DNA of 64,000 nucleotides, from the NCBI GenBank assembly GCA_039621445.1, contig CP154954.1, forward strand, positions 10,683,521 to 10,747,520, written 5' to 3'. The DNA comes from Euglena gracilis (lineage: Eukaryota). Position 1 is the first letter of the stretch; each line of letters begins with the position of its first letter. A program made the position numbers and the translations under genes. The notes below the pieces were generated by a model that made no database searches, had not been told where the DNA came from, and was given only the letters and a program-made list of their open reading frames with translations. Of the stretch, positions 48-22,349 are shown piece after piece.

Positions 48-110
48 AACCATATTTGTAGGAGAAAAATCTTTTAATATTATACATTAGGCAAAAATAT
101 GAGGAAAAGG

Positions 111-183
111 TGCACACAGCAGGGTTCGAACCCGCGACCTCCCTGTCATGAAGCAAGCACTGTACCAACTGAGCTATGTGAGC
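111..183 (-). pseudogene. tRNA-like sequence (pseudo-tRNA or SINE head)
   Basis: Minus strand GCTCACATAGCTCAGTTGGTA...GGTCGCGGGTTCGAACCCTGCTGTGTGCA: A and B boxes and acceptor stem are present, but the D and anticodon stems pair poorly. Confidence 0.55.
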
Positions 184-387: not shown

Positions 388-547
388 AAAGGGTGTCAGC
401 CATATTTTATGGAATTTGGATTTTGTGGAAGCCATCAACTCCAGCCAGTGGGGGGGGGGGGTGAAAAAAATGAAATAGGGGTGGGTGGTTAAAAAACAAA
501 ACCAAAATAGGGGGGGCGATTTTTACCACAAAAGTGGAACCAAAAAA

Positions 548-617
548 GACGAGGTGGGAATCGAACCCACGACCACACGGTTGACAGACAAACGCTGTAC
601 CACTATGCCACTCGCCT
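548..617 (-). pseudogene. degenerate tRNA-like sequence
   Basis: Minus strand GGCGAGTGGCATAGTGGTA...GGTCGTGGGTTCGATTCCCACCTCGTC followed by a T run; anticodon stem is not paired. Confidence 0.45.
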
Positions 618-652
618 TGTGATTCTAAGAGCTGCTTTTACATTGGGGACAA

Positions 653-5357: not shown

Positions 5358-5499
5358 TTTACAACACACGCGGACAAGCCCATCGAGTGTCGTAGGACAC
5401 TCCAAGCCCAAGAAGATCCCCAAGATCTAAGATCACCATGTTCGAGGACGTGGAACGAAGCTTTCGGTATGACCAAAATCACTGCCATGCAGCCGAAGC

Positions 5500-6334
5500 C
5501 ACCCTGCTTTTTGGAAAGAGCACCCCCAGAAACCCTAGAATTTTTTTTTAGAGCAAGGGCAAACAAGCCACGGGGCCAGAGTTGTGGCCCCGCAAGGTTT
5601 CGGCCCCAACCGCGCCCCCCGAAAGTACCTTTAAGAGCATTTAGGCAAAAAAGGGGCATCAAAAAACTGGCCAGCCACCCTAGCCCCTCCATTTTTTCGG
5701 AAAGAGCACCCCCGAAAACCTTGAAAAAATTCATTAGAGCAAGGGCAAACGCGCCACGGGGCCAAAGTTATGGCCCCGGCAAGCTTTCGGCCCCAACCCC
5801 CCCACTACAAAGTACATTCACGGCATTTCGGCCAAAACTGGGTCTCCAAATTCTGACCGTCAGCCCCAACCAAGCAGTTTTTTTGGAAAGAGTACCCCCA
5901 AAACCGAGAAAATTTTTTGGGAGCAAGGGGTAACGAACCACGGGGCCAAAGTTATGGCCCCGGCAAGGTTTCGGCCCCGGCAAGGTTTCGCCCCCAACCC
6001 CCCCCCCCTACAATGTACATTCACGGCATTTAGGCCAACTGGGTCTCCAAATTTTGACAGTCAGCCCCAGCCAAGCAGTTTTTCGGAAAGAGCTCCCCCA
6101 AAAACTGCAAAAATTTTTTTGGAGCAAGGACTAACGAACCACGGGGCCAAAGTTATGGCCGCAGCAAGGTTTTGGCCCCAACCCCTCCCCCACAATGTAC
6201 ATTCAGGGGCATTAAGGCCAAAACTGGGTATCCAAAACTGGACTGTCAGCCCCAACCAAGCAGTTTTTTGGAAGGAGCACCCCCAAAAACCCAAGAATTT
6301 TTTTTGGAGCAAGGGCTAACGAACCATGGGGCCA
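5500..6334. repeat. ~185-bp satellite array, left part, split by E1
   Basis: CACGGGGCCAAAGTTATGGCCCCGGCAAG-like motif at ~5569, 5755, 5939 and 6140, with a fifth unit broken at ~6324-6334. Confidence 0.8.
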
Positions 6335-7175
6335 GTTTTCCCCTCTCGCCGGTTCGGTGACCGTGCGCGGAATGGGCTCCCCGGCAGGCCGAGTGGGGGA
6401 AAAACAGTCACCCGGCGCTCCGGTAAAAATAGGCACACGCGCCCCAAAAATTCCCTTTTTTTGTGTCTTTCGGTCCCTGAATTCAGCCAGAACCTGGGTT
6501 CCGGCAGCCAAATAATTCAAAAATTGGGGGGGGGAACGGTATTTTTGGCCAACTCCTTGGGGGTGCCTCTGAAGTAGTAGGGGGGGGGGAGGAAAAGCCT
6601 GGTTTGAATTTAAAAAAAGGGTAGCGGGGGGGACGGAAGAACACCTTCACCTTGATTTCCAGCGCCGCTTGCTCTTCCTTTTTTGAATTTGAATTCTTTC
6701 CTTTTGATTGACCTTCCGGATTGACTCTTTGAAATTCTTGAACAATTGTTTTCTTGAAATCAGATTGAATTTTTGATATTCCTTCCTTCAGCATGCACAA
6801 TTCTTTGAATGAAACATTCGGAAGAGAGAGAACCTGGGGGGGAAAAGTACACAGGTAAAAAAAGTAGCGGAATGGGGCAGAATGTTCGCTAATTCCAGTG
6901 CGCAGGGGGGTCGGCACGCCGTGGCGAGCCGTCCGGCTAGGGGGGGGGGGAGGGGGGTTTTTGGCGTGGCGAGGGGGTCCCGGATGGGGGGGGGGAGGGG
7001 TGCGCGGGGGTTTTCCAAGAAAATTTTCTTTGGCGCGGCTGACATGGCGTGGCGAGGGGGTCTGAAAAGGGGGGGAGGGGGGGGGTAAAATGGCGTGGCG
7101 AGGGGGTCGGTGAGGGGGGGGGGGGAGGGGTGTGCCGACCCCCCGCAGGCGCCAGGCCGCCTCCCGCCGCCCACA
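6335..7175 (-). repeat. E1 3' LTR (contains a MITE insertion)
   Basis: Near-identical to 17629-18228 once 6905-7147 is removed. Confidence 0.92.
6905..7144. mobile_element. 240-bp MITE in the E1 3' LTR
   Basis: TIR GGGGGGTCGGCAC / GTGCCGACCCCCC and 3-bp TSD GCA; the 5' LTR shows the empty site (GTGCGCAGGCGCC). Confidence 0.9.
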
Positions 7176-7186
7176 CTCCCCTTCCT
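7176..7186 (-). promoter_or_regulatory. E1 polypurine tract
   Basis: AGGAAGGGGAG directly before the TG of the 3' LTR on the minus strand. Confidence 0.8.
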
Positions 7187-7733
7187 ACCGAGGCACCCGG
7201 CCTCGCCTGCCATCGGCTAACCTCGGAGGCGGGAGCGGGGGGCGATGCGCACCTCATCGGCGTAGTAAACAAACTGTACAAACAAACATCGGGGCGGTTC
7301 GGGTATAAGGAGGGCAGGGGTGTGGCCTTGGCCTCGGCCTTGGCCTTTGGCGTTTGATGCCCGGGGGCGCCCCTCGTGTGTGGCGTCGCGCGCCACAGGA
7401 GCCTGGTCGGGGGCTGGCGTTGGTCCCCGGGCGGTCTGCTGGCAGGCCGGCCGCAGGCTCCTATGGGCGCCTTGGGTGGGGGTGGAACTCCTCCGGGCTC
7501 TGGGCGGGGGCCGCTGTCGTGCTGGGTGGCTTGGCAGCCGCGCCGCGCCGACCTGCAGGCTGGTGGCAGAGCCCGGAGCATTGAGCCTTTCGGGGGGGCT
7601 GTGCTCCCCGGCTGGTTGGGGGGGGGGGGGCGGTCCCTTGGGCTCCCTTGGGTCTTTCTGGTGCCTGGGGGGTCTCTTCGGCTCGCCTCCTTTGCCCCCT
7701 GCCTGGCCTGGCTGGCTGGGGGGGGGGGGGCGT

Positions 7734-9633
7734 GTTCTGGTGTCTTGTTAAATTTTCGGAACTTTCTTCCAAATCTTCCCCTTCAATCCCAATTGAGCGC
7801 GCACTGCAAGATGGCCATACTGAGTCAAAGAGTTCAGGTTTTTTGTCACCTGAACAAAATGTACAATTCTGGGGCCTTTGCCTGGGAAATTAGGAACAGA
7901 GAATCTTAATTCGTCTGGTTTCGTCTGCCAGCGCCCCCCCCGCCGCCAACACCCCCTTCCCTGACCGCTTGCGTACCGCCTTCGGCAATACACAACGGCG
8001 GGGGGATATTTTCAGGATTTTTTTTTTCAGGAGGGGGGGGCGGATTATTGTACACTGTACATAGGCCGGGTCAGGTTTCCTTAAACCTTTTTGGATGGCA
8101 GGGTGATCTTGGGGCCGATTTCACACCAGTCAAGTCAGATGGTAAAGGTGAAAAAGGTCACACTGGGGTGCATCCCTTCCAATGAGCCTCAACTAGGGCT
8201 CATAGTGAGCTGATCTAGGGGCATCATAGTGGGAGCCACATCCAATGCCAACCCTTGGCATCCACAACCTCCAAGCCTCAACTCCATCCAGGAAGGAGGG
8301 GCATTGAAAGGGGAGCCACCACCAGAATACATCATAGCATCCCAACCCAGCAAGCCTCAACTCAATTCAAGAAAATGAGGGGCATTGAGGGGGAGCCATC
8401 ACCAGACAAAACTGCAAATTGTGGTGAACCTGATGCCGACCAGGTACCAGTGGTGCACCGCATAGTTGGCACAAATTGCAACGATTTGTCCAGTGAACGT
8501 CGTCGGGAAGGAGGGGAGGGGGCCAGGGGTATCACACCAGGTGAACCACAACTGGGCTTGAAGGGCATCCCGAGGAGAAAAGGAGCCTCGATTACAAGCT
8601 GTGGGCAGCCCAGGCACCACACCCAATGACCTCAACCCAGCTCAACTCCAATCGAAATAGAGACGAGCTGCACGACGTTGTTGCCTTCTCCTGCAACTTT
8701 TTGTCTTTTTGAATGTCCCATCCAACTCTTGTGGTGTGTAACTTTTGCCTGGCTGCAAAAATTCTTTGTTATCATAATCACCTTGCACGTAATAAGCCCA
8801 CAAGCCCCATTTGGTTCCAGCACAAAACTGACCATCATCCAACTGAAACACTTTAGTCCCAGGTGGGTAAAAGTAGCTTCTGATGACAAAGTCTTGAATC
8901 ATCTTCCACCATTTTGTGCTTCTCCAATCTGGCAAAACCAAAATGGCTTCTGCCTTGTCTTCAATCACCTTCTTGATGGTCTTCTCCAGTGCACTGTAAG
9001 GGGGATTCATTCACAGAAGTCCAGTGCCTGGCCCCCAATTGGCCCCAAAGGCATCTGGAACTTCGCCCCCATTGCCAAACCATCTTGCCATCCTTTTGTT
9101 CTTGTCATCTGCAAAAACATCAATGTCTGGTCGTGGCAGTCGCAATCTCATCAAAATGTCTCTGACAATTCCTTCTCTTACTGCATATCTTTCAGACACC
9201 CACTGCCTGGGGCCTGATCCCTTGGAAGCTGCAGATGCAATTGAAATACCTTTTGAGATTGCCAAATCTGGCCCAGAATCTTCATCATCTGAATCTTCAG
9301 AATGTCTCCTTTTCTGGGTGCCACAGTCTTCCGGCCTTCCCTGACTTTTGGCCTCATGGCCACCTTGCAGTCTTTGGCCACTTTTCATGATATGTCAACT
9401 CTTTGAACTCTTTGTGTTCTGGTGTCTTGTTAAATTTTCGGAACTTTCTTCCAAATCTTCCCCTTCAATCCCAATTGAGCGCGCACTGCAAGATGGCCAT
9501 ACTGAGTCAAAGAGTTCAGGTTTTTTGTCACCTGAACAAAATGTACAATTCTGGGGCCTTTGCCTGGGAAATTAGGAACAGAGAATCTTAATTCGTCTGG
9601 TTTCGTCTGCCAGCGCCCCCCCCGCCGCCAACA
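7734..9633 (-). mobile_element. non-autonomous 1.9-kb mini LTR element (TRIM-like or deletion derivative) carrying an amino-MTase, nested in E1
   Basis: ~218-bp direct repeats at 7734-7951 and 9416-9633; TSD GGCG(T) at 7729-7733 / 9634-9638; PPT AGGGAAGGGGG at 7952-7962; no PBS and no gag/RT/INT seen. Confidence 0.85.
8642..9388 (-). pseudogene. phage-Dam/DIRS-MT-like DNA amino-methyltransferase with one in-frame TGA
   Basis: SERYAV...IDVFAD...DAFGANW...LL*MNPPY...AILVLPDWRSTKWW; the TGA at 9011-9013 replaces the conserved Trp of WxNPPY. Confidence 0.85.
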
Positions 9634-10084
9634 GGCGTGCCTTTCTCTCCCTTGCGCCTGCTCGGTTCTCTTGTGGCGCTCTGGGGGGGGGGTGCTCCTT
9701 GCGCCCTCTTCGGTTCTCCTTTGGCGCTCTGGGGCTCCGGTGGGTGTGCGCGCCTCTGGGGGGGGGGGGCGCTTTTTTTGTTGGGCGCCCCTGGGGGGGG
9801 CGCTTTTTTTTTGGGCGCCCCTGGGGGGGCGCTTTTTTTTTTCGGTCCGGGGGGGTCCGGGGGCGTTTTTTTTTTTTTTTTCCCTGGGGGTCCCCCTGGG
9901 GTCTTTTGTCTTGGTGTGTGGGGGGGTCTTTGGTCGTGCTCTCCGGGCCCCCTGGGGGGGGGGGGGCGGCCTGGGTTGGGGGGCTCTGGGCCCCCGGGGG
10001 GGGGGCGGTCTTGGGTTTGTGGCCTCTGGGCCCCGGGGGGGGGGGGGGGGGGCTTGGTTGCCTCTGGGGCCCCCTGGGGGGGGT

Positions 10085-10505
10085 CCTGGCTCGGTGGCCC
10101 TCTGGGGCCCCCTGGGGGGGGGCCTGGCTCGGTGGCCCTCTGGGGCCTCCTGGGGGGTCTTGGCTCGGTGGTCCTCTGGGGCCTCTCGGTGGCCCTCTGG
10201 GGCCTCTCGGTGGCCCTCTGGGGGGCCCTGGCTCGGTGGCCCTCTGGGGCCTCTCGCCTTGCTGGTGCCCCCTGGGGGGGCTTTGGCTGTTCGGTTCCCC
10301 CTGGGGGGGGTGGCTTCGGTTCCCCCTGGGGGGCCTGGCTGGCTTCGGTTCCCCCTGGGGGGGGGGTGGCTTCGGTTCCCCCTGGGGGGCCTGTCTGGCT
10401 TCGGTTCCCCCTGGGGGGGGGGTGGCTTCGGTTCCCCCTGGGGGGCCTGGCTGGCTTCGGTTCCCCCTGGGGGGGGGTGGCTTCGGTTCCCCCTGGGGGG
10501 CCTGG
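10085..10505. repeat. G-rich minisatellites in the E1 3' region
   Basis: CTCGGTGGCCCTCTGGGG units followed by GGCTTCGGTTCCCCCTGGGGGG units. Confidence 0.8.
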
Positions 10506-11635
10506 CTGGCTTGTTTGTGTGGCCTCCGCCCCCCGCTCTCTCCCGGCCGTTGTCTTCCCTTGGCCGGCTGGGGGGGGTCTGCTCTGCCCCTGGCTGCCGC
10601 CCGCCTCTGGCTTCCGGCCTTGGGCGCCAGCCTCCTCCTGCCTCCACAGTATCAGTGTCAGTGTGAAGGACAGGGGCAGAGACATCCGCTGCCATCCGTC
10701 GGCTCGCCTCCGACGGTGTAGTCTCCACGTACCCAGCCTCCGCCAGCGTCTTGGTCCACGGCGCAGCAGGCACTCTGGCGAATCGGCAGGCAAGGAACGG
10801 CAGCAGCAGCAGCAGCCCCACAAATACAACCCCCGCTACCCAGTACGGTTTGACGCCAGGCTTTTCCAACCACCCCCGGGGCGGTGGGCTGGCATGGGTA
10901 GCCGTGGGTAGGGGAAAATGGGTGGCCTCCGGGTTGGGGCCGGAAAGGGCCGGGACTCACCAGGCCTGCGTTGGGGGGATTGAGGACGCAGACACCGGCG
11001 GTGGTGCCCTCTCGCCGCCTTGAGGCTGAGGACGGGTCCTGGAGGTGCAACGGGAAGGAGCCATGGGTGGCGAAGGCTCCATCGGGACAGGGGATGAACG
11101 GGGCGCACTGGGTATGGGGGTGCGCTGGCAGGAAATGGTGTGAGAGGAACGGGGACGGCGTGGCACAGGCCGGCGGCATGGGGGGGTGCCGGCCCGTACA
11201 CACCGGGAAGGCCGCAGGCGGAGGGGGCACCGCGTCCCCGCCCGCAGCCGGGAAATGGTTCGGAATGGGCACATACGGAGAATGGGTGAACATCGCAGAG
11301 GCAGCCACAGCCGCCTGGGGGGCAGCCACAGCAGCCTGGGTGGCAGCCACCACCGTCGCCTGGGGGGCGGCCACAGCAGCCTGGGAGGCAGCCACAGCCG
11401 CCTGGGGGGCAGCGTGCGGCAGCAAATGAGCGAACGCAGACACGGGCTGCGCACACTCAGCTCCTGTCGATGGACACACCAAGGTTGATACCGCAGCAGA
11501 GGGGATCTGGGGATCAGCCTCCTGCGACAGCTGGGGAAACGCAGAGACGGAGGGACGGTCGGACGGGTGGCACGAAGTGCAGCGGGGCGGGCTGGCGCGC
11601 TGCAGCGGCGGCGAAGGCTCGCGGTCGATCCTGAC

Positions 11636-13200
11636 CTAGCGCTGGCGGTGGATCGCGTGTGTCGGGACGTGCTGTCCTGCAGGCACCGCTGTGCCCACTG
11701 GGGGGTCCGCTGACTCCCCTTCCTGGCTGCTTGCCTCCTCGTCCTTCTTGATGTCCTCGTCGGGCCAGACCCACTCCTCGGGGGGGTCTTCCCACTCGGC
11801 GTTATTGATGACCTCCTGCTCCTGCTTCTTCACCTCCGCGATGATGACCGCCACCTCAGCCGGGTTGCGGTGGAGGTAGTCCAGCAGGTCCACCTTGAGC
11901 TTCTTGGACTTGGCGTACTCGATCATCTGGTGAGAGTAGCGATGGAAGAAATTCTTCAACGGCTCCCACGTGAGAGTCGGGTGGCCCTCCCACTTCACCT
12001 CGAACTCCCAGTCGCCGTCGTCTCGTCGGCGGTGCCGCCGGATCTCCTCCACCGTCCACTCCTCGATGTCCACGTCTTCTTGCGGTCTGGCCTGCCGGTA
12101 GACGAACATCTTGGGCGGGCCCCACAGCCGCGTGTCATCGCGGTAGGCCTTCAGCTGGCAGCGGTGGGCCTCTTGGCGGCGGCCCTCCTCCAGCTCCAGC
12201 TCGTACGAGTGCTCGCCACGGCGCGCGGTGACCCGGGCTGGGCCAAGCCAGTAGCTCTCGAGCTTCTGGCCCGGCCGCCTCGGAGGCCGGAGGTACCACA
12301 CGAGGTCTCCCTTGGCGAACTCCTCGAGGTCCTTCCTGCTCCGGTTCTTCTGGTCCGCTTGCCGCTTGTGGAGGTCGTTGAGGACGTCGGCGACCTTCTG
12401 GTCCACGGCCTTCTGTCTCTCGAAGAACGACACGGCATCCTCCACCATGACCGGGGCCTTGTACGGTACGCCACCAGTCCACCGATGCCGTCCATACAGC
12501 ACCTCGTACGGACTCAGGCCGTGCTGCGCCTTGGAGTCGTTCAGCTTCTGCACTGCCCTGGGCAGGGACTCCACCCAGGTGATCGGGGCCTCGGCCTTCT
12601 CGCTCCGGATCCGCTTCTGCAGCTGCGCACCGAGGGACTCCGCCCGCCCGTTCGCCGCGTGGTGGTACGCCTGGGCATAGGCGTGGCGGATCCCGTGCAG
12701 GCCGCACATGCTGCGCCACCACGCGCCAGCAAAGTGCGGCCCGCGATCACTCGTGATCACGCTGGGCAGCCCGTGCGGCGACCACCACCCCGGTACATCG
12801 CCTTGGCCACGGTGGCGGCGGTGAGGCCGCGCGTGTGGTGGGCCGTGGCCACGACCCACCCACTGTGGCGATCGACGCAGGCGGCGAACACGTTGTACAG
12901 CTGCCCCTCGAAGTCCACCTCCGGCATCACGAAGAGGTCGATGGCCACCGACGCCATGATGTACGGCGGGACGGGCGTCGGGCAGACCTTCAGCCGCAGC
13001 GGCTGGTGCGGGTGCTCGGTGGCCTGGCACACCGGGCACGTCCGCTGCAGCCCGCCGGCCACCTTCGCCGCCTCCATCCGGTCCGCGAAGACGTAGGTGC
13101 GCTCGGCCTCCTCCACCAGCCGGTCCCCGCCAACGTGGCCGGAGAGACCGAGTGCTGCTCCCTCAGCACCTCCGCCAGCAGCCCGCTCGGCACACACCAC
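11636..13200 (-). pseudogene. pol: E1 integrase (HHCC plus DDE) and C-terminal chromodomain, frameshifted
   Basis: GHVGG...CPVCQ; VAIDLF; ITSDRGPHF; NGRAE; YWLGP; WTVEEIRRHR...FEVKWEGH..LTWEP at ~11950-12065. Confidence 0.93.
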
Positions 13201-14019
13201 CTCCCCGCCGAGACGAGCCGCCCATCCACCAGCTGGAACCCGCTGGGCCAGCCCGGGCCGTTGTGGGCCTGGTCCCAGACGGGCTTCCACCGCGGGCACA
13301 CCGCATACGCCTTGCTCCAGTCCATGTCGAAGACGTTGATGTCCAGGTCAGGCTGCGGGGGCACGGGATCAGCGGTTGACGGCACACCTGCTGCGGGCGC
13401 TGCAGACGGGACTGACGCGGCCGGTGACGGCACACCGGCTGCGGACGCTGGGACGGGCATGGCCGGTGATGACACACCGGGCTGTGGGCGCTGCGGACGT
13501 GCGATGGACTGCGGTGCGGTGGACTGCGGTGCTGGTGATGGGACTGGCGATGGCGCGTTGGATGATGGTGCTGGCACGGACGCTGGTGATGCGATGCACG
13601 ACGCAGACGGTGGGACTGCCGCAGACGATGCCGACGGTGGGACTGCTGCGGCCGCGGGAGACGAGGCTGACGGGTGCATCTCGCGTGGGTGCTCGGGCCG
13701 CATACGGTGCGGGGCGTCTCGGGGTGCGTCTCGGGCTGAGCACTGCGAGTCCGGGCGGCATCGCGTGATGACGGCGATGTGGGACGCTCGCGGGACCGCG
13801 GCGAACGACTCGAGCGGGATCAGCTGGATGACGTCCAGACCTCTAACCCCCTTCAGGGTGGACCTCTCCACCTGTTCCGCCTTGGTCTCCTCGTCCTCGG
13901 GATGCACCGCCTTCGGGGTGGACTTCTCGCGCAGCTTCTCCTCCAGGATGTGGGCCTTCATCTCCTTCGTGTCGGCCTCGGTGCCGTGCCACGAGGTGTC
14001 GCGCCAGCCTTGTGAGGCC

Positions 14020-15450
14020 GGGTAGGCCCAGCGGGACATGGCATCGCCCACCACGTTGGTCTCGCCGGGGACGTGCACCACGGTGATGCGGAACTCGTTG
14101 AGCTTCGCATGCCATCTGGCCCGCCTCCCCTGCGGGCCCACTCCGGCGACGTACTCCTTGTACCACGACTCCAGGCTGCGGTGGTCGGTCAGGACGAGGA
14201 TCTCGTTGTCCAGCAGGAAGCCCGCCCACTTGTCGAGGGCGGCCACCACGGCATACGTCTCCTTGTCCCGGACATCCCACCGAAGGCGCTGCCCCTCAGT
14301 GAGCTTCCGGGACATGAAGGCCACCGGGACGGAGGCCCCCGGCCGCAGGTCCTCCACCCGCGGCACGCCGTCGATGTTCGGGAACTGCTCCAGCACCGCT
14401 CCGATGGCGTAGTCCGACGCGTCGGTGCGCAGGACGAACGGCTTGGCTGGATCGATGTGGTACAGCTCCAGGTCGGCGACGAGGGCCTTCTTCAGCTTCT
14501 CGAACGCCTCCTTCTCCTGCTCCGTCCACACCACTGGGTGCTTGGATCCCGCCTTGGTCAGCTCCCTCGGCAACTTCAGCTTCTCCTGCAACGGCGCCGC
14601 CAGCTCCGCGTAGAGTCTCACGTAGCCCGCATAGTAATTGCAGACGCCGAGAAACGCGCGGAGACTGCTGACCGTCGGCGGCAGCTGCCAGTGCTGCACC
14701 GCCGACAGTTTGCCTGGGGCAGGCGCCCTCCTGCCGTGCCCCAGGACATGCCCCACGAACTCGACCTGCCTCATGAAGAGCTTGACCTTGCGGCTGTCGC
14801 TAACCCATCTGTCCTTCTCCAAGGCCAGCAACGTCTCACGGACGTCTCGGGCATGCTTCTGGTAGAACTCCTCGTCCGTCTCCTCCACTCCCTGCCGCGT
14901 AATGACGATGATGTCGTCGAAGTACGGGCGGGAGTGCGCCTTCACCGCCGCGCAGGTGGCGTCGATGTCCCGCTGCAGGAGGGCGGGCCCGACGTTGATC
15001 CCCTGCGGGACCACACGCCACTGCCACAGCCCACCCGGCAGCTGGACGTTCGTCACCGGTCGGCTCTCCTCCGCCAAGGCCACCTGGTGGAACGCGTCCC
15101 GCAAGTCGATGGTGCTGAAGAGGGTACACTTCGCCTGCTCCGCCACGATCTCCTCCGTCAAGGGCAAGGGGTAGCTGTCCGCCATGATCTGCAGGTTCGT
15201 CACCGCGTAGTCACACACCATCCTCCACTTCCCGTTCTTCTTCCGAATCGGGAAGGCCGCCGCCCGCCACGGGCCGCGGCCCGGCTCCACCTTCCGGTCG
15301 CGGCAGCACTCCTCCTCCATCTCCCGCAGCGCCTCCAGCCGCTCGCCCTTCAGGTGGATCACCCTCCCCACCACCGGCTGGGCGTTTGGCTTGAGACGCA
15401 GCACCGCCATCCCGTGCTGGCCTCGGGGCGGCGGATCGGGGTGGACGCGG
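14020..15450 (-). CDS. pol: E1 reverse transcriptase and RNase H (within ORF 12990-15545)
   Basis: KKNGKWRMVCDY, IDLRDAFHQ, PQG, PYFDD (14913-14924), LRTDASDYAIGAVL, TDHRSL, NVVGDAMSR. Confidence 0.95.
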
Positions 15451-15829
15451 TCGCAGAACGCTGCCCTCGAACTCCTTGAGCATCTCGGCGCGCAGCTGGA
15501 CGGCCAGCGGATGCTGCTCCTCCGCCTCGGCCGTGACCACCCCACGGACTTCCTTCGCCTCCTTGGCCGCGTCGATCAGCACCTTGGCCACCATTGCCTC
15601 CTCCTCGGCGTCCAGGGCCTCGTCCTCCTCGTCTCCGTCGGGGCCGTTGACCCCGACGGTGAGCCTCATCTTCCTCACCTCGGCCTCCATCTCCTCCTCC
15701 ACTTCGGACGGCGTGCGGGGCAACGGCGATGGGCTGCGGGCTCGGACGGTCGCGTGGGTGCGTGTGCTTAGCGCTGCGATCTCGCTTGCTTCGGTGCCGG
15801 CGATGACCCATCGGGGGTCGTCGTGGAGC

Positions 15830-16200
15830 TGGAGCGCATCCCGCCAGGGTTGCACATCCAGCCTGTGCTCCTTCAGCCAGGGGTAACCCAGAATCAGGTC
15901 ACACCCTATATCACCGTCATGGACGGTGATCTGGCTGTGCCACCTCTTCACTCCTCAACTCCTCTCTCCTTCACTCCTCGCGTTGAACACCAGGAGGACG
16001 TCCGCCTCGTTGCTGCCGCCCGCCAGCAGGTCGCCGTTCACGGTCCGCAGCAGCAGCGGCCGCTCGCTGCGGCGGAAACATCCGTTCGGGAACAAGTCCC
16101 GACGGATCAGCGATGTCTGCGCCCCCGTGTCGATGAGGGCCTTCGCCTTCTCCTCCCGGCCGTCGATCTCGATGACCACATCCAGCATCAGCTGGTAGCT
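15830..16200 (-). pseudogene. E1 aspartic protease, with an in-frame TGA at 15955-15957
   Basis: ALIDTGAQTSLI ... DLILGYPWL in the same frame across the stop. Confidence 0.9.
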
Positions 16201-16539
16201 GCCGCCCCGCCTCTCAATGCGGCCCACCTGGAAGGGCCGGCTGGGGCGGTACTGCCACGGACGGACGGTGACCTTGTGGACCTTCCGCGGGTGGTGTGGC
16301 TCGTCGGCGGCGGTGGTGACGGGCTCGGCGGGTGGATCGTTGTGCGGCTCGGCGGGGGTGCACGATGCTTGGTGGGTGCACGATGGCGGTCGTTGGCGCG
16401 GGGCTTGGGACAGCGCCGCTGCTTGCGGGGGCAGCGCCGTCCGGATTGGTGGTGCGGTGGCGGACGCGGGTGCGGGTGCCGGCGACGGCGGTATCGCGCT
16501 GGGCAGCACGGCTGCTTGGCGGGTTGGTGGGGTGCGCTC

Positions 16540-17103
16540 GCACAGGTATCGGACTACTCCTTCGGGAATGCGATACGCCTGCTCTTGGGTACCGCGCTGC
16601 TGGGATGCCCCACCCAGCTGCCGTCGATGATGTCGTCGTCCATCTTGCTCCTCCACGATGTTCTCGCACTGGCCGTCGCACACGATGTCCTGCATGGGGG
16701 CCATGGAGTCCGCGATCCAGAAGCGTGTGGGCTTGCGATAGCCCCACGCCTCGAACATGCAGTAGTCCACATCGACGTACTGCATGTCCTCCACGACCTT
16801 GCGGTGGCGGAGTTTCCCATAGCGGGGATTCTCCAGCCACCACAGGGACGGCCGCAGGTAGGCGATGATCTCCTTCGTCTTGCGGACCAGGAAGTCGGCC
16901 TTCCGCAGCCGCCGCCTCCTGGTCGTCATCGCGCTGGAGTACTCGGTGCACGGCGGCGAGGCGGCGACCAGCTCGAAGTCGCCGGGCCAGTACTCCTCCC
17001 AGTACCGCCAGCGCCGCACGTCCACCGTCTTGTCCGCCTTCCACCGCGGGTCGGCATCCACCGAGATGACGGAGTAGCCGAGCTTCTCCAGCGCCCGCCT
17101 CAC
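16540..17103 (-). CDS. E1 C5-cytosine DNA methyltransferase domain (motif I missing), fused in frame to the protease
   Basis: LGYSVISVD, ASPPCTEYS (motif IV, 16948-16956), WWLENP (VI), YRKPTRFW (VIII), YRIP (X-like). Confidence 0.88.
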
Positions 17104-17558
17104 TCGGACGGGAACGGGAACGGGAAGGACAGGGAAGGGATCAGCTGGGGGAAGGGTGGGGTCCCGGGGAAAGGCTGAGAGGGTGGAGCCCCGGGTGGTA
17201 GCCAGGGGGTCGGGTCCCAGCTCTGGGGCTGGGCTGATTTCGGTAACAGGAGGGGGACTTGGGACGAGTCTCGAGGGCTATCGACTAGGGACTCGGATTG
17301 GAGGGGGATGAGTGGGAGTTGGGGTGGGGCTGGGAGCGCGGGAAACGGGGATTGTGGGGATGGGAGCGGGGATGGGGCAGGGGATCGGGGGTATGTTTTC
17401 GGGGTGTTTTCTTGCGCTTCCCGAGGGCTATCGGAAAGACTTGCGGTGGGGGCTACCACTTCAGAGTCCGCCGCAAAGGTTGGCATCCTGTCTGTGTCCC
17501 GGTGGGCCGCAGCCTCTTCGTGTGTGGAAAATTCTGGGGTGGTGTGCACGCTTTGCAT
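17100..17558 (-). pseudogene. gag: Pro-rich N-terminal gag remnant; the rest of gag appears deleted
   Basis: Lies just after the PBS; no capsid or CCHC motif; joins the DNMT abruptly. Confidence 0.4.
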
Positions 17559-17616
17559 TTCAAAAAGAAGGCACTCGAGAAAAATGGCCTTCAATGGAAA
17601 ACGTAGAACGAACAAG

Positions 17617-17628
17617 CCTCTGCTACCA
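17617..17628 (-). promoter_or_regulatory. E1 primer-binding site (initiator tRNA-Met)
   Basis: TGGTAGCAGAGG directly after the 5' LTR, complementary to the typical tRNAi-Met 3' end. Confidence 0.88.
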
Positions 17629-18228
17629 GTTTTCCCCTCTCGCCGGTTCGGTGACCGTGCGCGGAATGGGCTCCCCGGCAGGCCGAGTGGGGGAAAACAG
17701 TCACCCGGCGCTCCGGTAAAAATAGGCACACGCGCCCCAAAAATTCCCTTTTTTTGTGTCTTTCGGTCCCTGAATTCAGCCAGAACCTGGGTTCCGGCAG
17801 CCAAATAATTCAAAAATTGGGGGGGGGAACGGTATTTTTGGCCAACTCCTTGGGGGTGCCTCTGGAGTAGTAGGGGGGGGGGGAGGAAAAGCCTGGTTTG
17901 AATTTAAAAAAAGGGTAGCGGGGGGGACGGAAGAACACCTTCACCTTGATTTCCAGCGCCGCTTGCTCTTCCTTTTTTGAATTTGAATTCTTTCCTTTTG
18001 ATTGACCTTCCGGATTGACTCTTTGAAATTCTTGAACAATTGTTTTCTTGAAATCAGATTGAATTTTTGATATTCCTTCCTTCAGCATGCACAATTCTTT
18101 GAATGAAACATTCGGAAGAGAGAGAACCTGGGGGGGGGAAAAGTACACAGGTAAAAAAAGTAGCGGAATGGGGCAGAATGTTCGCTAATTCCAGTGCGCA
18201 GGCGCCAGGCCGCCTCCCGCCGCCCACA
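17629..18228 (-). repeat. E1 5' LTR
   Basis: Starts TGTGGGCGGC and ends GGGGAAAAC on the minus strand. Confidence 0.92.
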
Positions 18229-18720
18229 GGCCAAAGTTATGGCCCCGGCAAGCTTTCGGCCCCAATCCCCCCCCCCACGATGTACATTCAGGGTATTTCG
18301 GCCAAAACTGGTTCTCCAAAACAGGACAGCCCCAGCCAAGCAGTTTTTTGGAAAGAGCACCCCCAAAAGCCCCAGAATTTTTTTTACACCACGGGCTAAA
18401 GAAGCACGGCGCCAAAGTTATGGCCTCGGCAAGGTTTCGGCCCCAACCCCGCCCCCCGAAAGCACATTTTTGAGCATTTTGGCCAAAACTGGGTATCAAA
18501 ACTGACCAGTCAACCCCAGCCCCCATTTTTTGTTGAAAAAAAAACCCAAAACCCCCAGAAAAATTTTTTTAGAGCAAGACCAAACGGGCCACGCAGCCGA
18601 AGTTATGGCCCCGGCAAGGTTTCGGCCCAACCCCGTCCCATGAAGGTAAATTTTCAAGGGATTTCGGCCAAAACTGGGTGCCCATAAACCGGCCAATGAG
18701 CCCCAGCACCATGGGCCGCA
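18229..18720. repeat. ~185-bp satellite, right part
   Basis: GGCCAAAGTTATGGCC resumes exactly where the array broke at 6334; further units at ~18406 and ~18590. Confidence 0.8.
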
Positions 18721-18764
18721 AGGGGAAACTGCCACCCATTTCTTTGAGCACAGAATTTTCAACC

Positions 18765-19920
18765 GAACCCCGGAGGGGAACCCTCTACAACTACTTACAC
18801 TTCGCTTACAGCACACCGGTCCCACTCTTCTGCGGAGGCAAGGCCTCACCTTCGAACACCGGCACCCACCAGGGCGGCGCACTGGGCCCAGTGGGATTCG
18901 CCCTCGGCATTCACCCCATCTTTCCATCACCTGAAGCAGGCTGGCGATCTCCTGTGGAATTGCTGCTACCTAGATGACGGGTTTCTCGTAAGATTGAGCG
19001 GGCATTTAACTTTATCGGGAGTGAGGCCCCCCGCATTGGACTAAACCTGAACCTCCAAAAATGCGTACTTTGGGGCCCACCAACCGCCCTGGTCCCAAGT
19101 CACGCCAAAGCAAGGACAATACCCTGGAACGAAACGGCCGGTACCACCGTGCCTGGCATCCCCATCAACCACCCAGGCACCGCGCCCCAGAGCATCCCTG
19201 CGTGGGAGGACGCCACCCAACGGCCGGTGAGCGCAGCAGACGCTATAACACACATTCTGGACGTTCAAGTGACTCACCAACTTCTTCGGTCCTGCTTGGA
19301 TTGCTGCAAGTTCAATCGCCTCCTCCGGGCAGACGACACATACGCCAACAAACACAGCGTGGACAGATGCTCCGAGGTCATCATCTCCGCCCTTGATGAC
19401 ATCCTAGGCAACGCCTTGGGACCCGAACAACGTTCACAAGCCGCCATGTCACTGTCCAATGGCGGCCTAGGACTGAAGATCCCATCGGTGACACAGCCCG
19501 CAGCACGGATCGCCTCGATTGTCACTTTCTACACATCCCGCACACAGCGGGTCGGCACTCCCGCCTACGCCACAGCGGTTGACGCGGCAACCACACGACC
19601 CGTAATTGCGAACCTCCTCACAAGCTGAGCCCAAACCACACAACCACCAACGCCCTTACGCCAACCTCTCCAAATTCAGCCAGGGCGACACCGAAACCTG
19701 ACAGCAACAATGGTGGTCAAGGTAGCTTGGAAAAGAGGACATGGACCGCCTGATCGGTGCTTCTGCTCCGCAAGATCAAAACCGACTGCTGGAGCAAGCC
19801 AACGGCATCGGGCATGGTTGGATGGACGTGCCCCCAAGCACCACCTTACCTACCACCATCCCAAGCGGTCAGTACCTGCTAGGCCTACTTTGGTGGCTGG
19901 GTCTGCCAATCATGGATGAC
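18765..19920 (+). pseudogene. degenerate CRE/SLACS-type non-LTR reverse transcriptase fragment
   Basis: GTHQGGALGPVGFALGIHP, CYLDDG (~18962-18981), LSNGGLGL...AARIAS, GWMDVPP...LGLP; frameshifted. Confidence 0.75.
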
Positions 19921-22349
19921 GCGAGCTCCATTGTCGGTGGTAATATAATTAGGACAATGGGCTAGCTTTCCACCTGTAGACTTGGTGTTGGATATATGAC
20001 AGGAAGTCAGGGAAAATCTTTGCCAAGCCATTTAATATTTTGTCAGGGGTGCAAACTGACTTTTTTTGAGATAATCAAAATTTTTCATGGAGAACACAAA
20101 CAAAAAAAATAAGTAATTTGTTTACAGAGGGAAAATTGCGAGGCTAAGATGATTGCTGTGGCTTTTGTGGGTCATGCTTGAAAAGGTGGCGCAGGGATAC
20201 GTGTAGAAATTTGTGCCACAAGCTGGGGCGGGACAAAGTAATTCCAAATGTGTGGAGGAATTGGAAAGTGTCCTCTAATTGCGGAGTCCATTTCTGTGGT
20301 GTAACTGGCACGCAAATCTTCATTGAAATAATACAGTCGTGTGTAATTGTAGCAGAAGTGCCAAAAAAGGCGTGCAGTGAAAGTTGAATATTGCATTTCG
20401 TCGTTGAAAATATACTGCTAAGAGCTGTCGTAAGGCGAGGAAAATTTTTTGCCTTGTCAATGAATGTGGTAAGGGTAAACGAGAGATTTCCCAGCCGTGC
20501 CCTACAATGTGTTGCGTAACTTTGATGTTATAGTTGGGGTTCGTAGGAGGTGCTCATGTTTGCGGTCTTCCTCTGCTTTTCCGTTTTACTTGAATCTCCT
20601 CCCAACCAGAAAGTGTATTTGGGCCTGCAAAGCCGCCCCCCAACTTAGGCCTGCAAAAGACATATACTGTCAGGCCTGCAAAGGCCCCCACCAAACTGAG
20701 GCCTGCAAAGGCCTATATTGTCGGGCCAGCTATGGACCCCCTTCATTTTTGCAATATTGTCAGGCCTGCAAAGGCCAGACTTTCTGTGCATGCCCCGTTC
20801 ACTTCTGCTTCTGCTCTGTTTCTTGTCTCTGGTCCCAATTGAACATTCTTCATGTTCCTTCTATGGCCAAATCAATACACTTCCTGTCAACAATAGCCCC
20901 AATCCCATTCAGCCGCTGGCTGAAGGTAAGGTATGGGAGAAGCCCGAGGTATTCTTTTCCTAACGGTATTTTCTAAGCCCCCCACCCCCTTGACTGTTTG
21001 GGGGATATGGAAGAGGGAAAAGGAGCGGTGTGACTTGGAAACGGTCTGTGTGATTTCAATTTGGTTTGAATGTAATTTGATGTTGAGTTGAACAAGGGAG
21101 AGTGACTCCACAGGTATATATATCCGGCGTGCACCTTTTATGTATACGGTGCTCTAGCAGGTCAGAGATACACATTACACGTGGTCCCGAGGGACTCATG
21201 GGGCGTTCTATTTACAACATTGACAAAGGGAAGGGTGAGGGGAAGGTTTCCACAATTCACATCATCGTAGGTGGTGAGAGTTTTTTAGTGAGATTATAAA
21301 TGAGCAATTTGAACAAAGACGTGAGATTAAGCTACAGCACAGATGCATGCAAAGCGTGCGTGACGTCCACACCTCATGTATTTTTTCCGGGATCACAGTC
21401 AATTCAAAATGCTGACTGCAGTTTGCTTAGATGCCCAATTGGTATCGAGAGCGGGATTGAAATATATCTCCTGAAGGACTAAAATTTGTTCTCACATCCT
21501 CCCAGGTTTATTTTTATCTTTGTGTTGGTTGTTGTGTTGTTCTGTGTTGCTGTCAGCATTGCGGGTTGTCTGTGGCAGCAATGCTGCAAGCATTGCGAGG
21601 TGTCTGTGGCAGCAATGCTTGCAGCACTTCCGAGTGTTTGTGGTTTTGCTTTTGCTTTGCTTTTTTTCTTCAAAGGCCCAATCGGAGCCCCTGCGTGAGC
21701 GCCAGCCCTACATGAAGATGAGAAGCCAAGCGGACAAAACCGGTGTGCCAATGGTGGTTCGAACAGGCCTCTAAAGTGGTTGTGCCGTTCAGGTTCATGC
21801 TTGTTGTTTGTCGATCCGAGGAACCGTTCCTCGCTGTGTTTTTTCTCTTTTCTCTTTGTTGCTAAAAATCAAAAAAAACTTTTCCAAGTGAGGAAACCTT
21901 TTTTCAATGAAAACTTTTTGTCCATTTTTTTGAACATCTAGAATTTTTTTTTGAAAATACCAACCCCCCAGAAAAAAATACAAGTCGAAATTTTTTCCTC
22001 AAATTTTTTCAGCTTTCTCCACTCAGTCACACGACTAAATTCTGTCTTCTTGCTTCTTCGTGCCATGGTGAAAAACTGCATGTCTTGCGCAGAATGTTTC
22101 ACGTCCGAAAAGAGGAAGTCCTTCAAAGCACAAAGGGAAGAGAAATCAGACAAAAAGCGGCCACCGAAAGTGCATCAGCGCAGCAGCACTTTCAGCACGG
22201 CTAAAAAGTCGAATTGACAAAAATGAGAGGCAAAAAAAAAGCCGAAAAGCCGAAAGTGAACGGCATAATCGCCGAAAAGCCGAAAAACAACGGCTAAACA
22301 GCCGAAAATCCGCAAAAAAAACCGTCAAAAAACCGAAAAGCCGGAATAA

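What the first reader, a model, noticed from the sequence alone, without database searches (positions are those of the whole stretch)
16540..17103. Compact C5-cytosine MTase fused upstream of the protease in E1
Seen: SPPCTEYS, WWLENP, YRKPTRFW and YRIP in one ORF with a Pro-rich linker and the DTG protease. Motif I is missing where an apparent internal deletion joins the gag remnant. Inference: a minimal DNMT with little target-recognition region, more like viral or phage enzymes than Dnmt1/Dnmt3, captured by a gypsy family. This copy probably cannot bind SAM.
Basis: partly seen in the sequence, partly recalled or inferred. Interest (0 to 1): 0.82.

Follow-up and report, generated by a model that had tools for sequence, protein, structure and literature searches.

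The report
Broken virus-type DNA methylase in retrotransposon
A jumping gene of the Ty3/gypsy kind carries, in front of its protease, a small cytosine DNA methyltransferase of a type otherwise found in giant viruses; this copy is broken, but intact relatives exist, adding a variant to the known cases of retrotransposons that bring their own DNA-methylating enzyme.

Summary
On the minus strand, ORF 15955-17277 holds DNMT motifs IV, VI and VIII, a conserved Cys pair, a YRIP motif, a Pro-rich linker and a DTGA protease.

It lies in a young LTR element, 6332-18202, with 99.1% identical LTRs and the order PR-RT-RNaseH-integrase-chromodomain.

The window copy alone misses Pfam PF00145 (12.2 bits, cut-off 22). 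It does hit a phage DNMT family at 4e-14, and 18 of 24 aligned members hit PF00145. Its model matches DNMT folds, best a 218-residue giant-virus enzyme (TM 0.71).

Intact relatives keep motif I and the same DNMT-protease-RT order in single ORFs (L081, P0031). Homology in the window starts at 17103, just after motif I, where contigs of another run also break. So the copy lacks its SAM loop. It also has an in-frame stop and three frameshifts.

The upstream piece shows no gag.

Retrotransposon DNMTs are known from a 2018 paper and a 2026 preprint. This is a new variant: a compact virus-type enzyme placed upstream of the protease. Activity is untested. Interest is moderate.

The parts
17626..18202 (-). 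5' LTR of element E1
   Evidence: Direct repeat with 6332-6906, 99.1% identity over 578 columns. Sequences read.
17617..17628 (-). primer-binding-site-like TGGTAGCAGAGG at the end of the 5' LTR
   Evidence: Read. Its likeness to initiator-tRNA primer sites is recalled, not tested.
17100..17558 (-). N-terminal ORF: ATG, 152 Pro-rich codons, stop at 17102-17100. It is in a different frame from the DNMT.
   Evidence: No Pfam family. No match to family proteins or loci. Covered at about 98% identity by an X5 contig that stops fitting at 17103.
17103..17104 (-). junction: homology to the DNMT family starts here, directly after the place of motif I
   Evidence: tblastn and alignment starts. X5 records 22 and 23 both stop fitting at 17103.
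16540..17103 (-). C5-DNMT domain remnant, 188 codons: motifs IV, VI and VIII, Cys pair, YRIP; motif I missing
16936..16959 (-). motif IV, SPPCTEYS, with the catalytic Cys
   Evidence: The Cys is invariant in 24 of 24 rows.
16825..16842 (-). motif VI, WWLENP (ENP where textbook enzymes have ENV)
   Evidence: E, N and P are invariant. Aligned to the DNMT1 ENV region.
16717..16740 (-). motif VIII-like, YRKPTRFW
   Evidence: G, Y, K, T and R are invariant.
16660..16683 (-). short target-recognition stretch with the invariant Cys pair (VCDGQCEN)
   Evidence: Modelled as a beta-hairpin region.
16564..16575 (-). C-terminal YRIP motif, at the position of motif X
16258..16539 (-). Pro-rich linker between DNMT and protease
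   Evidence: It is much shorter in relatives.
15805..16257 (-). aspartic protease (DTGA at 16131-16120), interrupted by an in-frame stop
   Evidence: Pfam gag-asp_proteas E 0.005 and RVP E 0.011, both below cut-off. Aligned to the proteases of P0004, P0009 and P0031.
15955..15957 (-). in-frame stop codon, private to this copy
   Evidence: Nearly all laid depth of X1, X5 and X15 reads another letter at its first position (table 3).
14745..15248 (-). reverse transcriptase. A frameshift lies upstream of it, near 15445-15458.
   Evidence: RVT_1 8.3e-22. Change of frame between the tblastn pieces.
14091..14528 (-). RNase H
   Evidence: RT_RNaseH 2e-23 and RT_RNaseH_2 4.5e-22.
12300..13337 (-). integrase, split by two frameshifts (near 13113-13143 and 12787-12793)
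   Evidence: rve 8e-4. Three tblastn pieces to P0031 in three frames. Other copies show small indels at these two places (table 4).
11915..12058 (-). chromodomain
   Evidence: Chromo 3.5e-5, 24.1 bits, cut-off 25.1. The relative P0031 scores 28.2 bits.
6907..11635 (-). 3' internal region: G-rich tandem repeats, a low-complexity ORF, and a nested piece 7732-9633 with a Dam-like fragment
6332..6906 (-). 3' LTR of element E1

Best explanation
The stretch is the remnant of a compact C5 cytosine methyltransferase domain. It is encoded as the first enzymatic domain of the Pol polyprotein of a Ty3/gypsy, chromodomain-bearing LTR retrotransposon (E1, 6332-18202, minus strand). The domain order is N-terminal low-complexity part, DNMT, Pro-rich linker, protease, RT, RNase H, integrase, chromodomain.

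Shown here:
- The domain belongs to a large family of about 200-residue DNMTs found in giant-virus and other viral contigs.
- The retrotransposon-borne members form one group within that family.
- Intact members keep motif I and all catalytic motifs, in single long ORFs.
- The domain has evolved under purifying selection.
- The window copy has lost motif I at a junction at 17103. It is out of frame with its start codon, and it carries one in-frame stop and three frameshifts.

Inferred:
- In intact elements the protease releases the DNMT, which then methylates cytosines of the element's own new DNA copy. This is the self-methylation idea of de Mendoza et al. 2018. It would let the copy blend into, or be quietly parked in, methylated heterochromatin, where the chromodomain directs integration. 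E1 does sit inside a 185-bp satellite array.
- The window copy itself cannot make an active enzyme. It is a dead, recently inserted member of a very abundant family.
For: Sequence family:
- 23 homologues, the best at E 3.6e-72.
- 7019 clusters at E<=1e-3 and 991 at E<=1e-30.
- 18 of 24 alignment members hit PF00145.
- A profile of the family aligns motifs I, IV and VI to DNMT1.

Fold:
- Model pLDDT 84.5, pTM 0.79.
- The PDB hits listed are all C5-DNMTs, E 3e-7.
- Best viral hit: Tetraselmis virus 1 DNMT, E 1.4e-16, TM 0.71.
- phrog_757 at 4.1e-14.

Part of the element, not a neighbouring gene:
- L081 is one 1196-codon ORF with DNMT (motif I intact), PR, RT and RH.
- P0031, 2513 residues, continues through integrase and chromodomain.
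- P0027 has the same order.

Element anatomy:
- LTR pair at 99.1% identity.
- RT 8e-22, RNase H 2e-23, chromodomain 3.5e-5.

One retroelement group:
- 28 of 29 motif-labelled retroelement rows lie in a set of 64 rows with support 98 and no viral-contig row.
- 33 rows lie on one side of a branch with SH-aLRT 93. The window falls in an 8-row DNMT-before-PR subclade with support 98.

Selection:
- dN 0.36 against dS 1.8 for the window versus L082. dS is saturated in the other two pairs.

Defects of this copy.

Abundance: 16193 contigs of run X1 were laid on 8 kb.

Satellite on both flanks.
Against: - No enzymatic activity or substrate was tested. DNA methylation, and its sequence context, are inferred from family membership.
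- The window copy alone misses PF00145 (E 0.12, 12.2 bits against 22) and has no PDB sequence hit.
- The family departs from textbook motifs: ENP for ENV, and YRIP where motif X usually reads GNAVP (that comparison is recalled).
- The trees are unrooted, so the direction of transfer (virus to element, or element to virus) is open.
- Support for the retroelement group is 93, which is not starred. I took the 33 rows from the earlier FastTree set, so the two trees are not independent.
- No Gag was recognised anywhere in E1 or in the 620 N-terminal residues of P0031. The element's full biology is therefore unclear.
- No expression was shown. RNA raw reads of X23 give next to no depth over E1 (74 reads laid, 69 of them only partly). 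The metatranscriptome contigs of X15 cannot prove transcription.
- The junction at 17103 rests on two contigs of one run. I could not see the letters beyond it.
Confidence: 0.85

Rival explanations
1. The family enzyme acts on RNA, or on the RNA-DNA hybrid of reverse transcription. It would then be an m5C RNA methyltransferase in the manner of DNMT2 or DNMT6, not a DNA methyltransferase.
For: - The domain is small and has no companion DNA- or chromatin-reading domain of its own. The MBE 2025 paper notes the same of DNMT2 and DNMT6 (passages seen).
- Weak profile hits to DNMT2-type chains exist, E 0.05-0.08.
- The enzyme would meet the element's RNA in the particle.
Against: - Profile and fold hits to DNA enzymes are stronger: DNMT1 at 8e-4, DNMT3B and DNMT1 at 3e-7.
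- The closest relatives are viral and phage DNA methyltransferase families.
- Retrotransposon DNMTs tested in 2018 methylated CG in DNA de novo (abstract of PMC5890265). Those enzymes belong to other DNMT families.
Confidence: 0.08
2. Motif I was not removed by a deletion. It decayed in place: the seven codons PVPVPVR stand in register where FSGTGS stood, changed by point mutations and repeat slippage.
For: - The number of codons fits.
- Each Ser/Gly/Thr-to-Pro/Val change needs only one base change, assuming common codons. That is my inference.
- The stretch is a CCCGTT-type microsatellite, which can spread by slippage.
Against: - Both X5 contigs stop fitting at exactly 17103, and both hold further letters that lie off the window.
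- The ATG-started N-terminal ORF stays open for 152 codons and ends exactly at the junction in another frame. That fits two coding pieces joined out of frame.
- Every other family-invariant residue of the domain is intact. That does not fit local decay dense enough to erase every motif I residue.
Confidence: 0.2
3. The DNMT is not part of the retrotransposon. A host or endogenised viral DNMT gene merely lies next to a gypsy insertion, or was fused to it by assembly.
For: - The window copy's DNMT is out of frame with the upstream start codon.
- No Gag was found.
- Standalone relatives are common in viral contigs.
Against: - The DNMT and protease share one ORF in the window.
- They also share one ORF in independent records from other sources: L081, L082, P0004, P0005, P0006, P0009, P0027, P0031.
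- The whole unit lies between 99.1% identical LTRs.
- It is laid at uniformly very high depth in X1.
Confidence: 0.03

Closest known systems
EpiLTRs of Euglena gracilis and Cymbomonas tetramitiformis (bioRxiv 10.64898/2026.05.21.726589, May 2026; passages and section 7 read, supplements not seen)
   Same: - Chromovirus-like LTR retrotransposons whose Pol carries a C5-DNMT together with a chromodomain.
- The family found here also has members with a Dam-like domain plus the DNMT and a protease (P0029, P0075, P0084, P0086).
- The window itself holds three Dam-like pieces, two of them at the head of LTR-type elements.
   Different: - E1 and its 8-row subclade, including the full-length P0031, have no Dam domain in the polyprotein.
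- The DNMT sits upstream of the protease, not at the 3' end of pol as described for Cymbomonas.
- The preprint places its DNMTs sister to DNMT4. Here DIM2 is no closer by fold than DNMT3B or DNMT1, and the best match is a giant-virus enzyme.
- Whether the two DNMT clades are the same could not be tested, because no sequences were at hand.
KnitGypsy-Dnmt3 of Klebsormidium nitens (de Mendoza et al. 2018, PMC5890265; sections 6, 7 and 9 read)
   Same: A DNMT inside the Pol ORF of an LTR Gypsy retrotransposon, conserved under purifying selection. The proposed role is methylation of the element's own copy.
   Different: - That DNMT is of the Dnmt3 family and host-derived. This one is a compact enzyme of about 200 residues whose nearest kin are viral.
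- Membership in Dnmt3 was not tested by phylogeny here.
SymbioLINE-Dnmt and SymbioDIRS-Dnmt3 of Symbiodinium (same 2018 paper)
   Same: Retrotransposon-borne DNMTs in very high copy number. SymbioLINE-Dnmt is an 'orphan' DNMT lineage outside Dnmt1 and Dnmt3.
   Different: Those carriers are LINE and DIRS elements, with no protease, no DDE integrase and no chromodomain. E1 is an LTR element with PR, RT, RH, INT and chromodomain.
Compact viral C5-DNMTs: putative cytosine DNA methyltransferase of Tetraselmis virus 1 (BFVD A0A2P0VN45) and phage family phrog_757
   Same: - Same size and fold over the whole length: TM 0.71/0.73, 27% identity.
- Same motif set.
- Standalone relatives lie beside NCLDV capsid and ribonucleotide reductase genes.
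   Different: The viral enzymes are free-standing genes. Here the domain is fused into a retrotransposon polyprotein, and the retroelement forms group apart from the viral-contig forms.

Membership tests
C5 cytosine DNA methyltransferase (PF00145 superfamily) | Motif I: FxGxG loop that binds S-adenosylmethionine | tested here: not met
   The window reads PVPVPVR at 17124-17104. Relatives read LDLFSGTGS. The family has the motif; this copy does not.
C5 cytosine DNA methyltransferase (PF00145 superfamily) | Motif IV: Pro-Cys with the catalytic cysteine | tested here: met
   SPPCTEYS at 16959-16936. The Cys is invariant in 24 of 24 rows.
C5 cytosine DNA methyltransferase (PF00145 superfamily) | Motif VI: ENV with the glutamate | tested here: met
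   WWLENP at 16842-16825. E, N and P are invariant, with P in place of V. It aligns to the ENV region of DNMT1.
C5 cytosine DNA methyltransferase (PF00145 superfamily) | Motif VIII arginine(s) | tested here: inconclusive
   KPTRFW has one invariant Arg. Its equivalence to the textbook QxRxR motif is inferred from position only.
C5 cytosine DNA methyltransferase (PF00145 superfamily) | Score at or above Pfam's gathering cut-off (22 bits) | tested here: not met
   Window copy: 12.2 bits, E 0.12. Relatives P0031 (25.3), P0037 (27.2) and P0075 (29.1) pass. 18 of 24 members hit at E<=0.01.
C5 cytosine DNA methyltransferase (PF00145 superfamily) | DNMT fold | tested here: met
   Model pLDDT 84.5. 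The Foldseek PDB hits listed are all DNMTs, E 3e-7, probability 1.0, TM about 0.5. Viral DNMT TM 0.71.
C5 cytosine DNA methyltransferase (PF00145 superfamily) | Transfers methyl to C5 of cytosine in DNA | not testable with these tools
   Needs expression of an intact relative and a methylation read-out.
Ty3/gypsy LTR retrotransposon, chromovirus type | Long terminal repeats flanking the coding part | tested here: met
   6332-6906 equals 17626-18202 at 99.1% over 578. The target-site duplication was not resolved.
Ty3/gypsy LTR retrotransposon, chromovirus type | Pol order PR-RT-RNaseH-INT | tested here: met
   Protease motif plus weak Pfam hits. RVT_1 8e-22, RT_RNaseH 2e-23, rve 8e-4, in that order on the minus strand.
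Ty3/gypsy LTR retrotransposon, chromovirus type | C-terminal chromodomain | tested here: inconclusive
   Chromo E 3.5e-5, but 24.1 bits against a cut-off of 25.1 in the window. The homologous stretch of P0031 scores 28.2 bits.
Ty3/gypsy LTR retrotransposon, chromovirus type | Gag / capsid protein | tested here: not met
   No gag family in the 152-codon N-terminal ORF, in P0001, or in the 620 N-terminal residues of P0031. A divergent Gag is not excluded.
EpiLTR (DAM + DNMT + chromodomain LTR elements) | Dam-type adenine methyltransferase domain in the same polyprotein | tested here: not met
   There is no Dam hit in the E1 coding frames or in P0031. A Dam-like fragment at 8645-9394 lies in a nested piece bracketed by 100% identical 220-bp repeats, with lower G+C.
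EpiLTR (DAM + DNMT + chromodomain LTR elements) | DNMT of the clade sister to DNMT4 | not testable with these tools
   The preprint's sequences and Supplementary Fig. 2D were not available.
KnitGypsy-Dnmt3 | DNMT belongs to the Dnmt3 family | not tested
   No reference Dnmt3 sequences were at hand for a tree. By fold, a giant-virus compact DNMT (TM 0.71) fits better than DNMT3B (TM 0.52-0.55).

The most novel reading that the evidence does not exclude
One compact, giant-virus-type cytosine methyltransferase was taken up once by chromodomain-bearing LTR retrotransposons of protists. It then became a movable module: placed before or after the protease, with or without a Dam-type adenine methylase, in elements that show no recognisable Gag. 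On this reading, viruses and retrotransposons of microbial eukaryotes share one pool of self-methylation enzymes. Standard PF00145 screens have under-counted this pool, because many of its members score at or below the cut-off.
Probability: 0.45. Interest if true: 0.6.

Novelty: new variant of a known kind. Interest (0 to 1): 0.42.

Why it matters
Retrotransposons that carry their own DNA methyltransferase invert the usual picture of methylation as a host weapon against them. Only a few such families have been described.

This family differs in several ways:
- The enzyme is of viral type, not a host Dnmt3.
- It is the first catalytic domain of Pol.
- It occurs in at least four domain arrangements.
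- It is widespread in environmental sequence.

Because many members fall at or below Pfam's cut-off, surveys based on PF00145 probably miss them.

Intact relatives (for example the ORFs of L081 and P0031) give a small, easily expressed enzyme. With it one could test whether retroelements methylate their own DNA, and in which sequence context.

The window copy itself is a dead member and of no functional consequence.

Tried and rejected
- Own-genome search: no genome is held for this window. Sister copies could therefore not be fetched.
- phmmer of the ORF against PDB sequences: no hit.
- First repeat scan of 8000-20000: no LTR pair. A wider self-BLAST found the pair.
- Gag remnant: the N-terminal ORF has no Pfam hit and no likeness to relatives' N-termini. 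My first attempt used a wrong frame and was repeated.
- Target-site duplication: not resolved from the flanks.
- Host lineage: Rfam and ARAGORN gave only two tRNAs. Run labels are coded. A euglenid-like host is only a guess from the mix of Dam- and DNMT-bearing elements, and it is not used as evidence.
- Expression: the RNA raw reads of X23 laid 74 reads on 8 kb, 69 of them only partly. X15 is a metatranscriptome kept as contigs, which cannot show transcription.
- dN/dS: dS is saturated in two of three pairs, so only one rough ratio could be given.
- NCBIfam: no family for the window remnant, P0004 or P0019. L017 gave a weak dcm hit, 22 bits against a cut-off of 100.
- Prokaryote genomes: only 5 of 30 pattern matches are relatives, all on MAG contigs. 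The scan is pattern-based, so this is a lower bound.
- Earlier findings: none for this genome or this sequence.
- Literature: five searches found no paper describing a DNMT upstream of the protease in an LTR element, or a giant-virus-type DNMT in one. The 2026 preprint may overlap, and its supplements were closed.
- The second fold job, the complex prediction and the protein atlas were not used.
Full report
**What is there.**
The window's minus strand holds an ORF of 440 codons, 15955-17277. It reads, in order:
- a Pro-rich lead
- VRRALEK (17103-17083)
- SPPCTEYS (16959-16936)
- WWLENP (16842-16825)
- YRKPTRFW (16740-16717)
- a Cys-x3-Cys stretch (16683-16660)
- YRIP (16575-16564)
- about 95 Pro-rich codons
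- an aspartic-protease DTGA (16131-16120)

**It is a real DNMT domain, not a chance motif set.**
- Sequence. The 196-residue stretch finds 23 proteins among 5.8 billion, the best at E 3.6e-72 and 61% identity. A profile of the 24-row alignment A1 finds 7019 cluster representatives at E<=1e-3 and 991 at E<=1e-30.
- Pfam. The window copy on its own gives only E 0.12 (12.2 bits, cut-off 22) against PF00145, and nothing by phmmer against PDB sequences. However, 18 of the 24 alignment members hit PF00145 at E<=0.01. Longer relatives pass the cut-off: P0031 25.3, P0037 27.2 and P0075 29.1 bits. The family profile aligns motif I and motifs IV-VI to DNMT1.
- Fold. An AlphaFold model of the window domain has pLDDT 84.5 and pTM 0.79. 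The PDB hits listed are all C5-DNMTs (DNMT3B, DNMT3A, DNMT1, MET1, DIM2) at E about 3e-7, probability 1.0, TM about 0.5.
- Conservation. All 16 invariant columns of A1, including the catalytic Cys and the ENP triplet, are kept in the window copy.

**It is compact and of viral type.**
- From motif I to the end of the YRIP helix the retroelement forms span about 215 residues. The stretch between motif VIII and YRIP is about 50 residues, with two invariant Cys and a near-invariant His.
- In the viral structure library the best match is the 218-residue putative cytosine DNA methyltransferase of Tetraselmis virus 1 (E 1.4e-16, TM 0.71/0.73, 27% identity). It matches over its whole length and clearly better than any PDB DNMT.
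- The window remnant hits the phage family phrog_757 at 4.1e-14. It hits no NCBIfam bacterial model.
- In IMG/VR, 378 of 588 candidate stretches encode relatives at 30-43% identity, including two giant-virus MAG contigs.
- One relative (L017) lies 1.5 kb from an NCLDV major capsid gene (Capsid_NCLDV 5.5e-48) and near a ribonucleotide reductase small-chain gene. Another (L033) lies beside a ribonucleotide reductase large-chain gene and an SNF2 helicase.
- Only 5 relatives turned up in one genome each of 185,579 prokaryote species, all on MAG contigs. This scan is pattern-based, so the count is a lower bound.

**It belongs to an LTR retrotransposon.**
- Domains. Downstream on the same strand lie RT (RVT_1 8.3e-22), RNase H (2e-23), integrase (rve 8e-4) and a chromodomain (3.5e-5, just under the cut-off).
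- LTRs. A self-comparison shows direct repeats 6332-6906 and 17626-18202, 99.1% identical over 578 columns. TGGTAGCAGAGG follows the upstream one. Reading that as a tRNA primer site is from recall.
- Insertion site. Outside both repeats lies the same 185-bp satellite, at 5490-6334 and 18221-18705. The element apparently inserted into a satellite array, which fits chromodomain-guided integration into heterochromatin. That link is an inference.
- Composition. E1's coding part has 68% G+C and a CpG observed/expected ratio of 0.97. The whole window has 52% and 0.77.

**The domain is part of the family's polyprotein.**
Independent records carry the same fusion in single ORFs.
- L081 is one 1196-codon ORF: low-complexity lead, DNMT with LDLFSGTGS, protease, RT and RNase H (59% identity to the window).
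- L082 and P0004, and also P0005, P0006, P0009 and P0027, show DNMT followed by protease.
- P0031 (2513 residues) runs from a 620-residue low-complexity lead through DNMT, PR, RT, RH, INT and chromodomain.
- Other members place the protease before the DNMT (P0008, P0012-P0014, L083). Some add a Dam-type domain (P0029, P0075, P0084, P0086).
- In the 64-row retroelement set I could assign 10 DNMT-before-PR, 7 PR-before-DNMT and 4 with an added NPPx (Dam-type) motif. The other 43 rows are fragments and could not be assigned.

**Phylogeny.**
- In a FastTree of 255 domain rows, the window lies in a set of 64 rows with support 98. That set holds 28 of the 29 rows labelled as retroelement by protease, RT or Dam motifs, and no viral-contig row.
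- In an IQ-TREE (quick) tree of 68 rows, the 33 retroelement rows are one side of a branch with SH-aLRT 93. The window falls in an 8-row DNMT-before-PR subclade with support 98. The PR-before-DNMT forms are a separate clade with support 98, and the Dam-bearing forms are scattered.
- Caveats: the 33 rows were taken from the first tree, the support of 93 is not starred, and the trees are unrooted. One origin is therefore likely but not proven, and the direction of transfer is open.

**Selection.**
Window versus L082 gives dN 0.36 and dS 1.8. In the two other pairs dS is saturated. This is consistent with purifying selection on the domain.

**Why this copy is dead.**
1. Motif I. Homology to all relatives starts at 17094-17103. 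The seven codons before that read PVPVPVR instead of the SAM-binding loop.
2. Frame. The only upstream ATG (17558) opens a 152-codon Pro-rich ORF that ends at 17102-17100 in another frame.
3. Junction. In run X5, one contig fits 16695-17103 and another fits 17103-17594. Both fits stop at 17103, and both contigs hold further letters that lie off the window (table 8). I read this as a deletion or recombination junction that removed motif I and shifted the frame. In-place decay through the CCCGTT repeat remains possible (about 0.2).
4. Stop codon. An in-frame stop lies at 15957-15955. Nearly all laid depth in X1, X5 and X15 reads another letter at its first position (table 3).
5. Frameshifts. The frame changes near 15445-15458, 13113-13143 and 12787-12793. 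Other copies show small indels at the last two places (table 4).

The family is very abundant: 16193 contigs of run X1 were laid on 8 kb.

**Gag.**
The upstream ORF has no Pfam family and no likeness to relatives. The 620-residue lead of P0031 has no recognised domain either. Whether these elements have a Gag at all is open.

**Mechanism.**
- Shown: family membership, fold, fusion into Pol, conservation of the catalytic residues in relatives, and the defects of this copy.
- Inferred: the protease frees the DNMT, which methylates cytosines of the new DNA copy. The chromodomain steers integration to heterochromatin. This follows the self-methylation idea in de Mendoza et al. 2018, whose abstract reports de novo CG methylation by other retrotransposon DNMTs.
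- Not tested: substrate (DNA or RNA) and sequence context.

**Comparison with the literature.**
- De Mendoza et al. 2018 (PMC5890265; sections 6, 7 and 9 read) describe SymbioLINE-Dnmt, SymbioDIRS-Dnmt3 and KnitGypsy-Dnmt3.
- A May 2026 preprint (10.64898/2026.05.21.726589; passages and section 7 read, supplements closed) describes EpiLTRs. These are chromovirus-like elements with Dam, DNMT and chromodomain in Euglena gracilis and Cymbomonas, with DNMTs 'sister to DNMT4'.
- An MBE 2025 paper (PMC12344493; passages only) notes 'orphan' eukaryotic DNMTs of viral origin.
- Five searches found no description of a DNMT upstream of the protease or of a giant-virus-type DNMT in an LTR element.
- E1's subclade has no Dam in its polyprotein, so a Dam-based screen would have missed it. 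Relatives with Dam may well be the preprint's Euglena elements, but I could not compare sequences.
It is a parallel case and was not tested here.

**Verdict.**
This is a new variant of a known kind: a dead copy of a family of chromodomain LTR retrotransposons that carry a compact virus-type C5-DNMT ahead of the protease. Interest is moderate, 0.42. The family is worth an activity test; this particular copy is not functional.

Noticed in passing
window 31161-34113 (-): A second, older DNMT-bearing gypsy element with the other domain order: protease 34113-33771, DNMT 33710-33078 (stop codons, motif IV decayed), RT-RNase H 32723-31161. About 26-28% identical to P0008 and P0012.
   Followed up: partly
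window 26070-30569 (+) and 48797-52336 (+): Two LTR-type elements that start with a Dam-like adenine methyltransferase piece (PF05869, E 4.7e-5 and 3.6e-4, below cut-off), followed by RT and integrase. The first also has a chromodomain-like end. They resemble the DAM-LTR elements of the 2026 preprint.
   Followed up: partly
window 7732-9633: 100% identical 220-bp direct repeats (7732-7951 and 9414-9633) bracket a frameshifted Dam-like ORF (8645-9394, minus strand; PF05869 E 8e-4). The piece has lower G+C than E1 and looks like a recent nested insertion in E1's 3' part.
   Followed up: partly
window 5490-6334 and 18221-18705: A 185-bp satellite lies on both sides of E1, so the element appears to have inserted into a tandem array. 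No target-site duplication could be read.
   Followed up: partly
window 9700-10520: G-rich tandem repeats of 38 and 56 bp inside E1's 3' region. They overlap a 508-codon low-complexity ORF (9430-10956, minus strand) rich in Pro, Arg and Gly. Meaning unknown.
   Followed up: no
alignment A1 (window residues C134, C161, C165, H178 of 16480-17160 minus strand): Three invariant cysteines and a near-invariant histidine around the short target-recognition stretch. This may be a zinc site, as a signature of this compact DNMT family.
   Followed up: no
proteins P0007 and P0010 (metagenomic): Short proteins that fuse this compact C5-DNMT directly to a Dam-type domain. P0010 hits PF00145 and PF05869 (8.5e-12). 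They form their own clade with support 99 inside the retroelement group.
   Followed up: no
window 109-183 (-) and 545-618 (-): Two tRNA genes, His (anticodon read as ATG by ARAGORN) and Gln (CTG). These are the only Rfam matches in the window.
   Followed up: no
window 38000-42000: Strong AT skew (0.37-0.42) over about 4 kb in the composition profile. Not examined.
   Followed up: no
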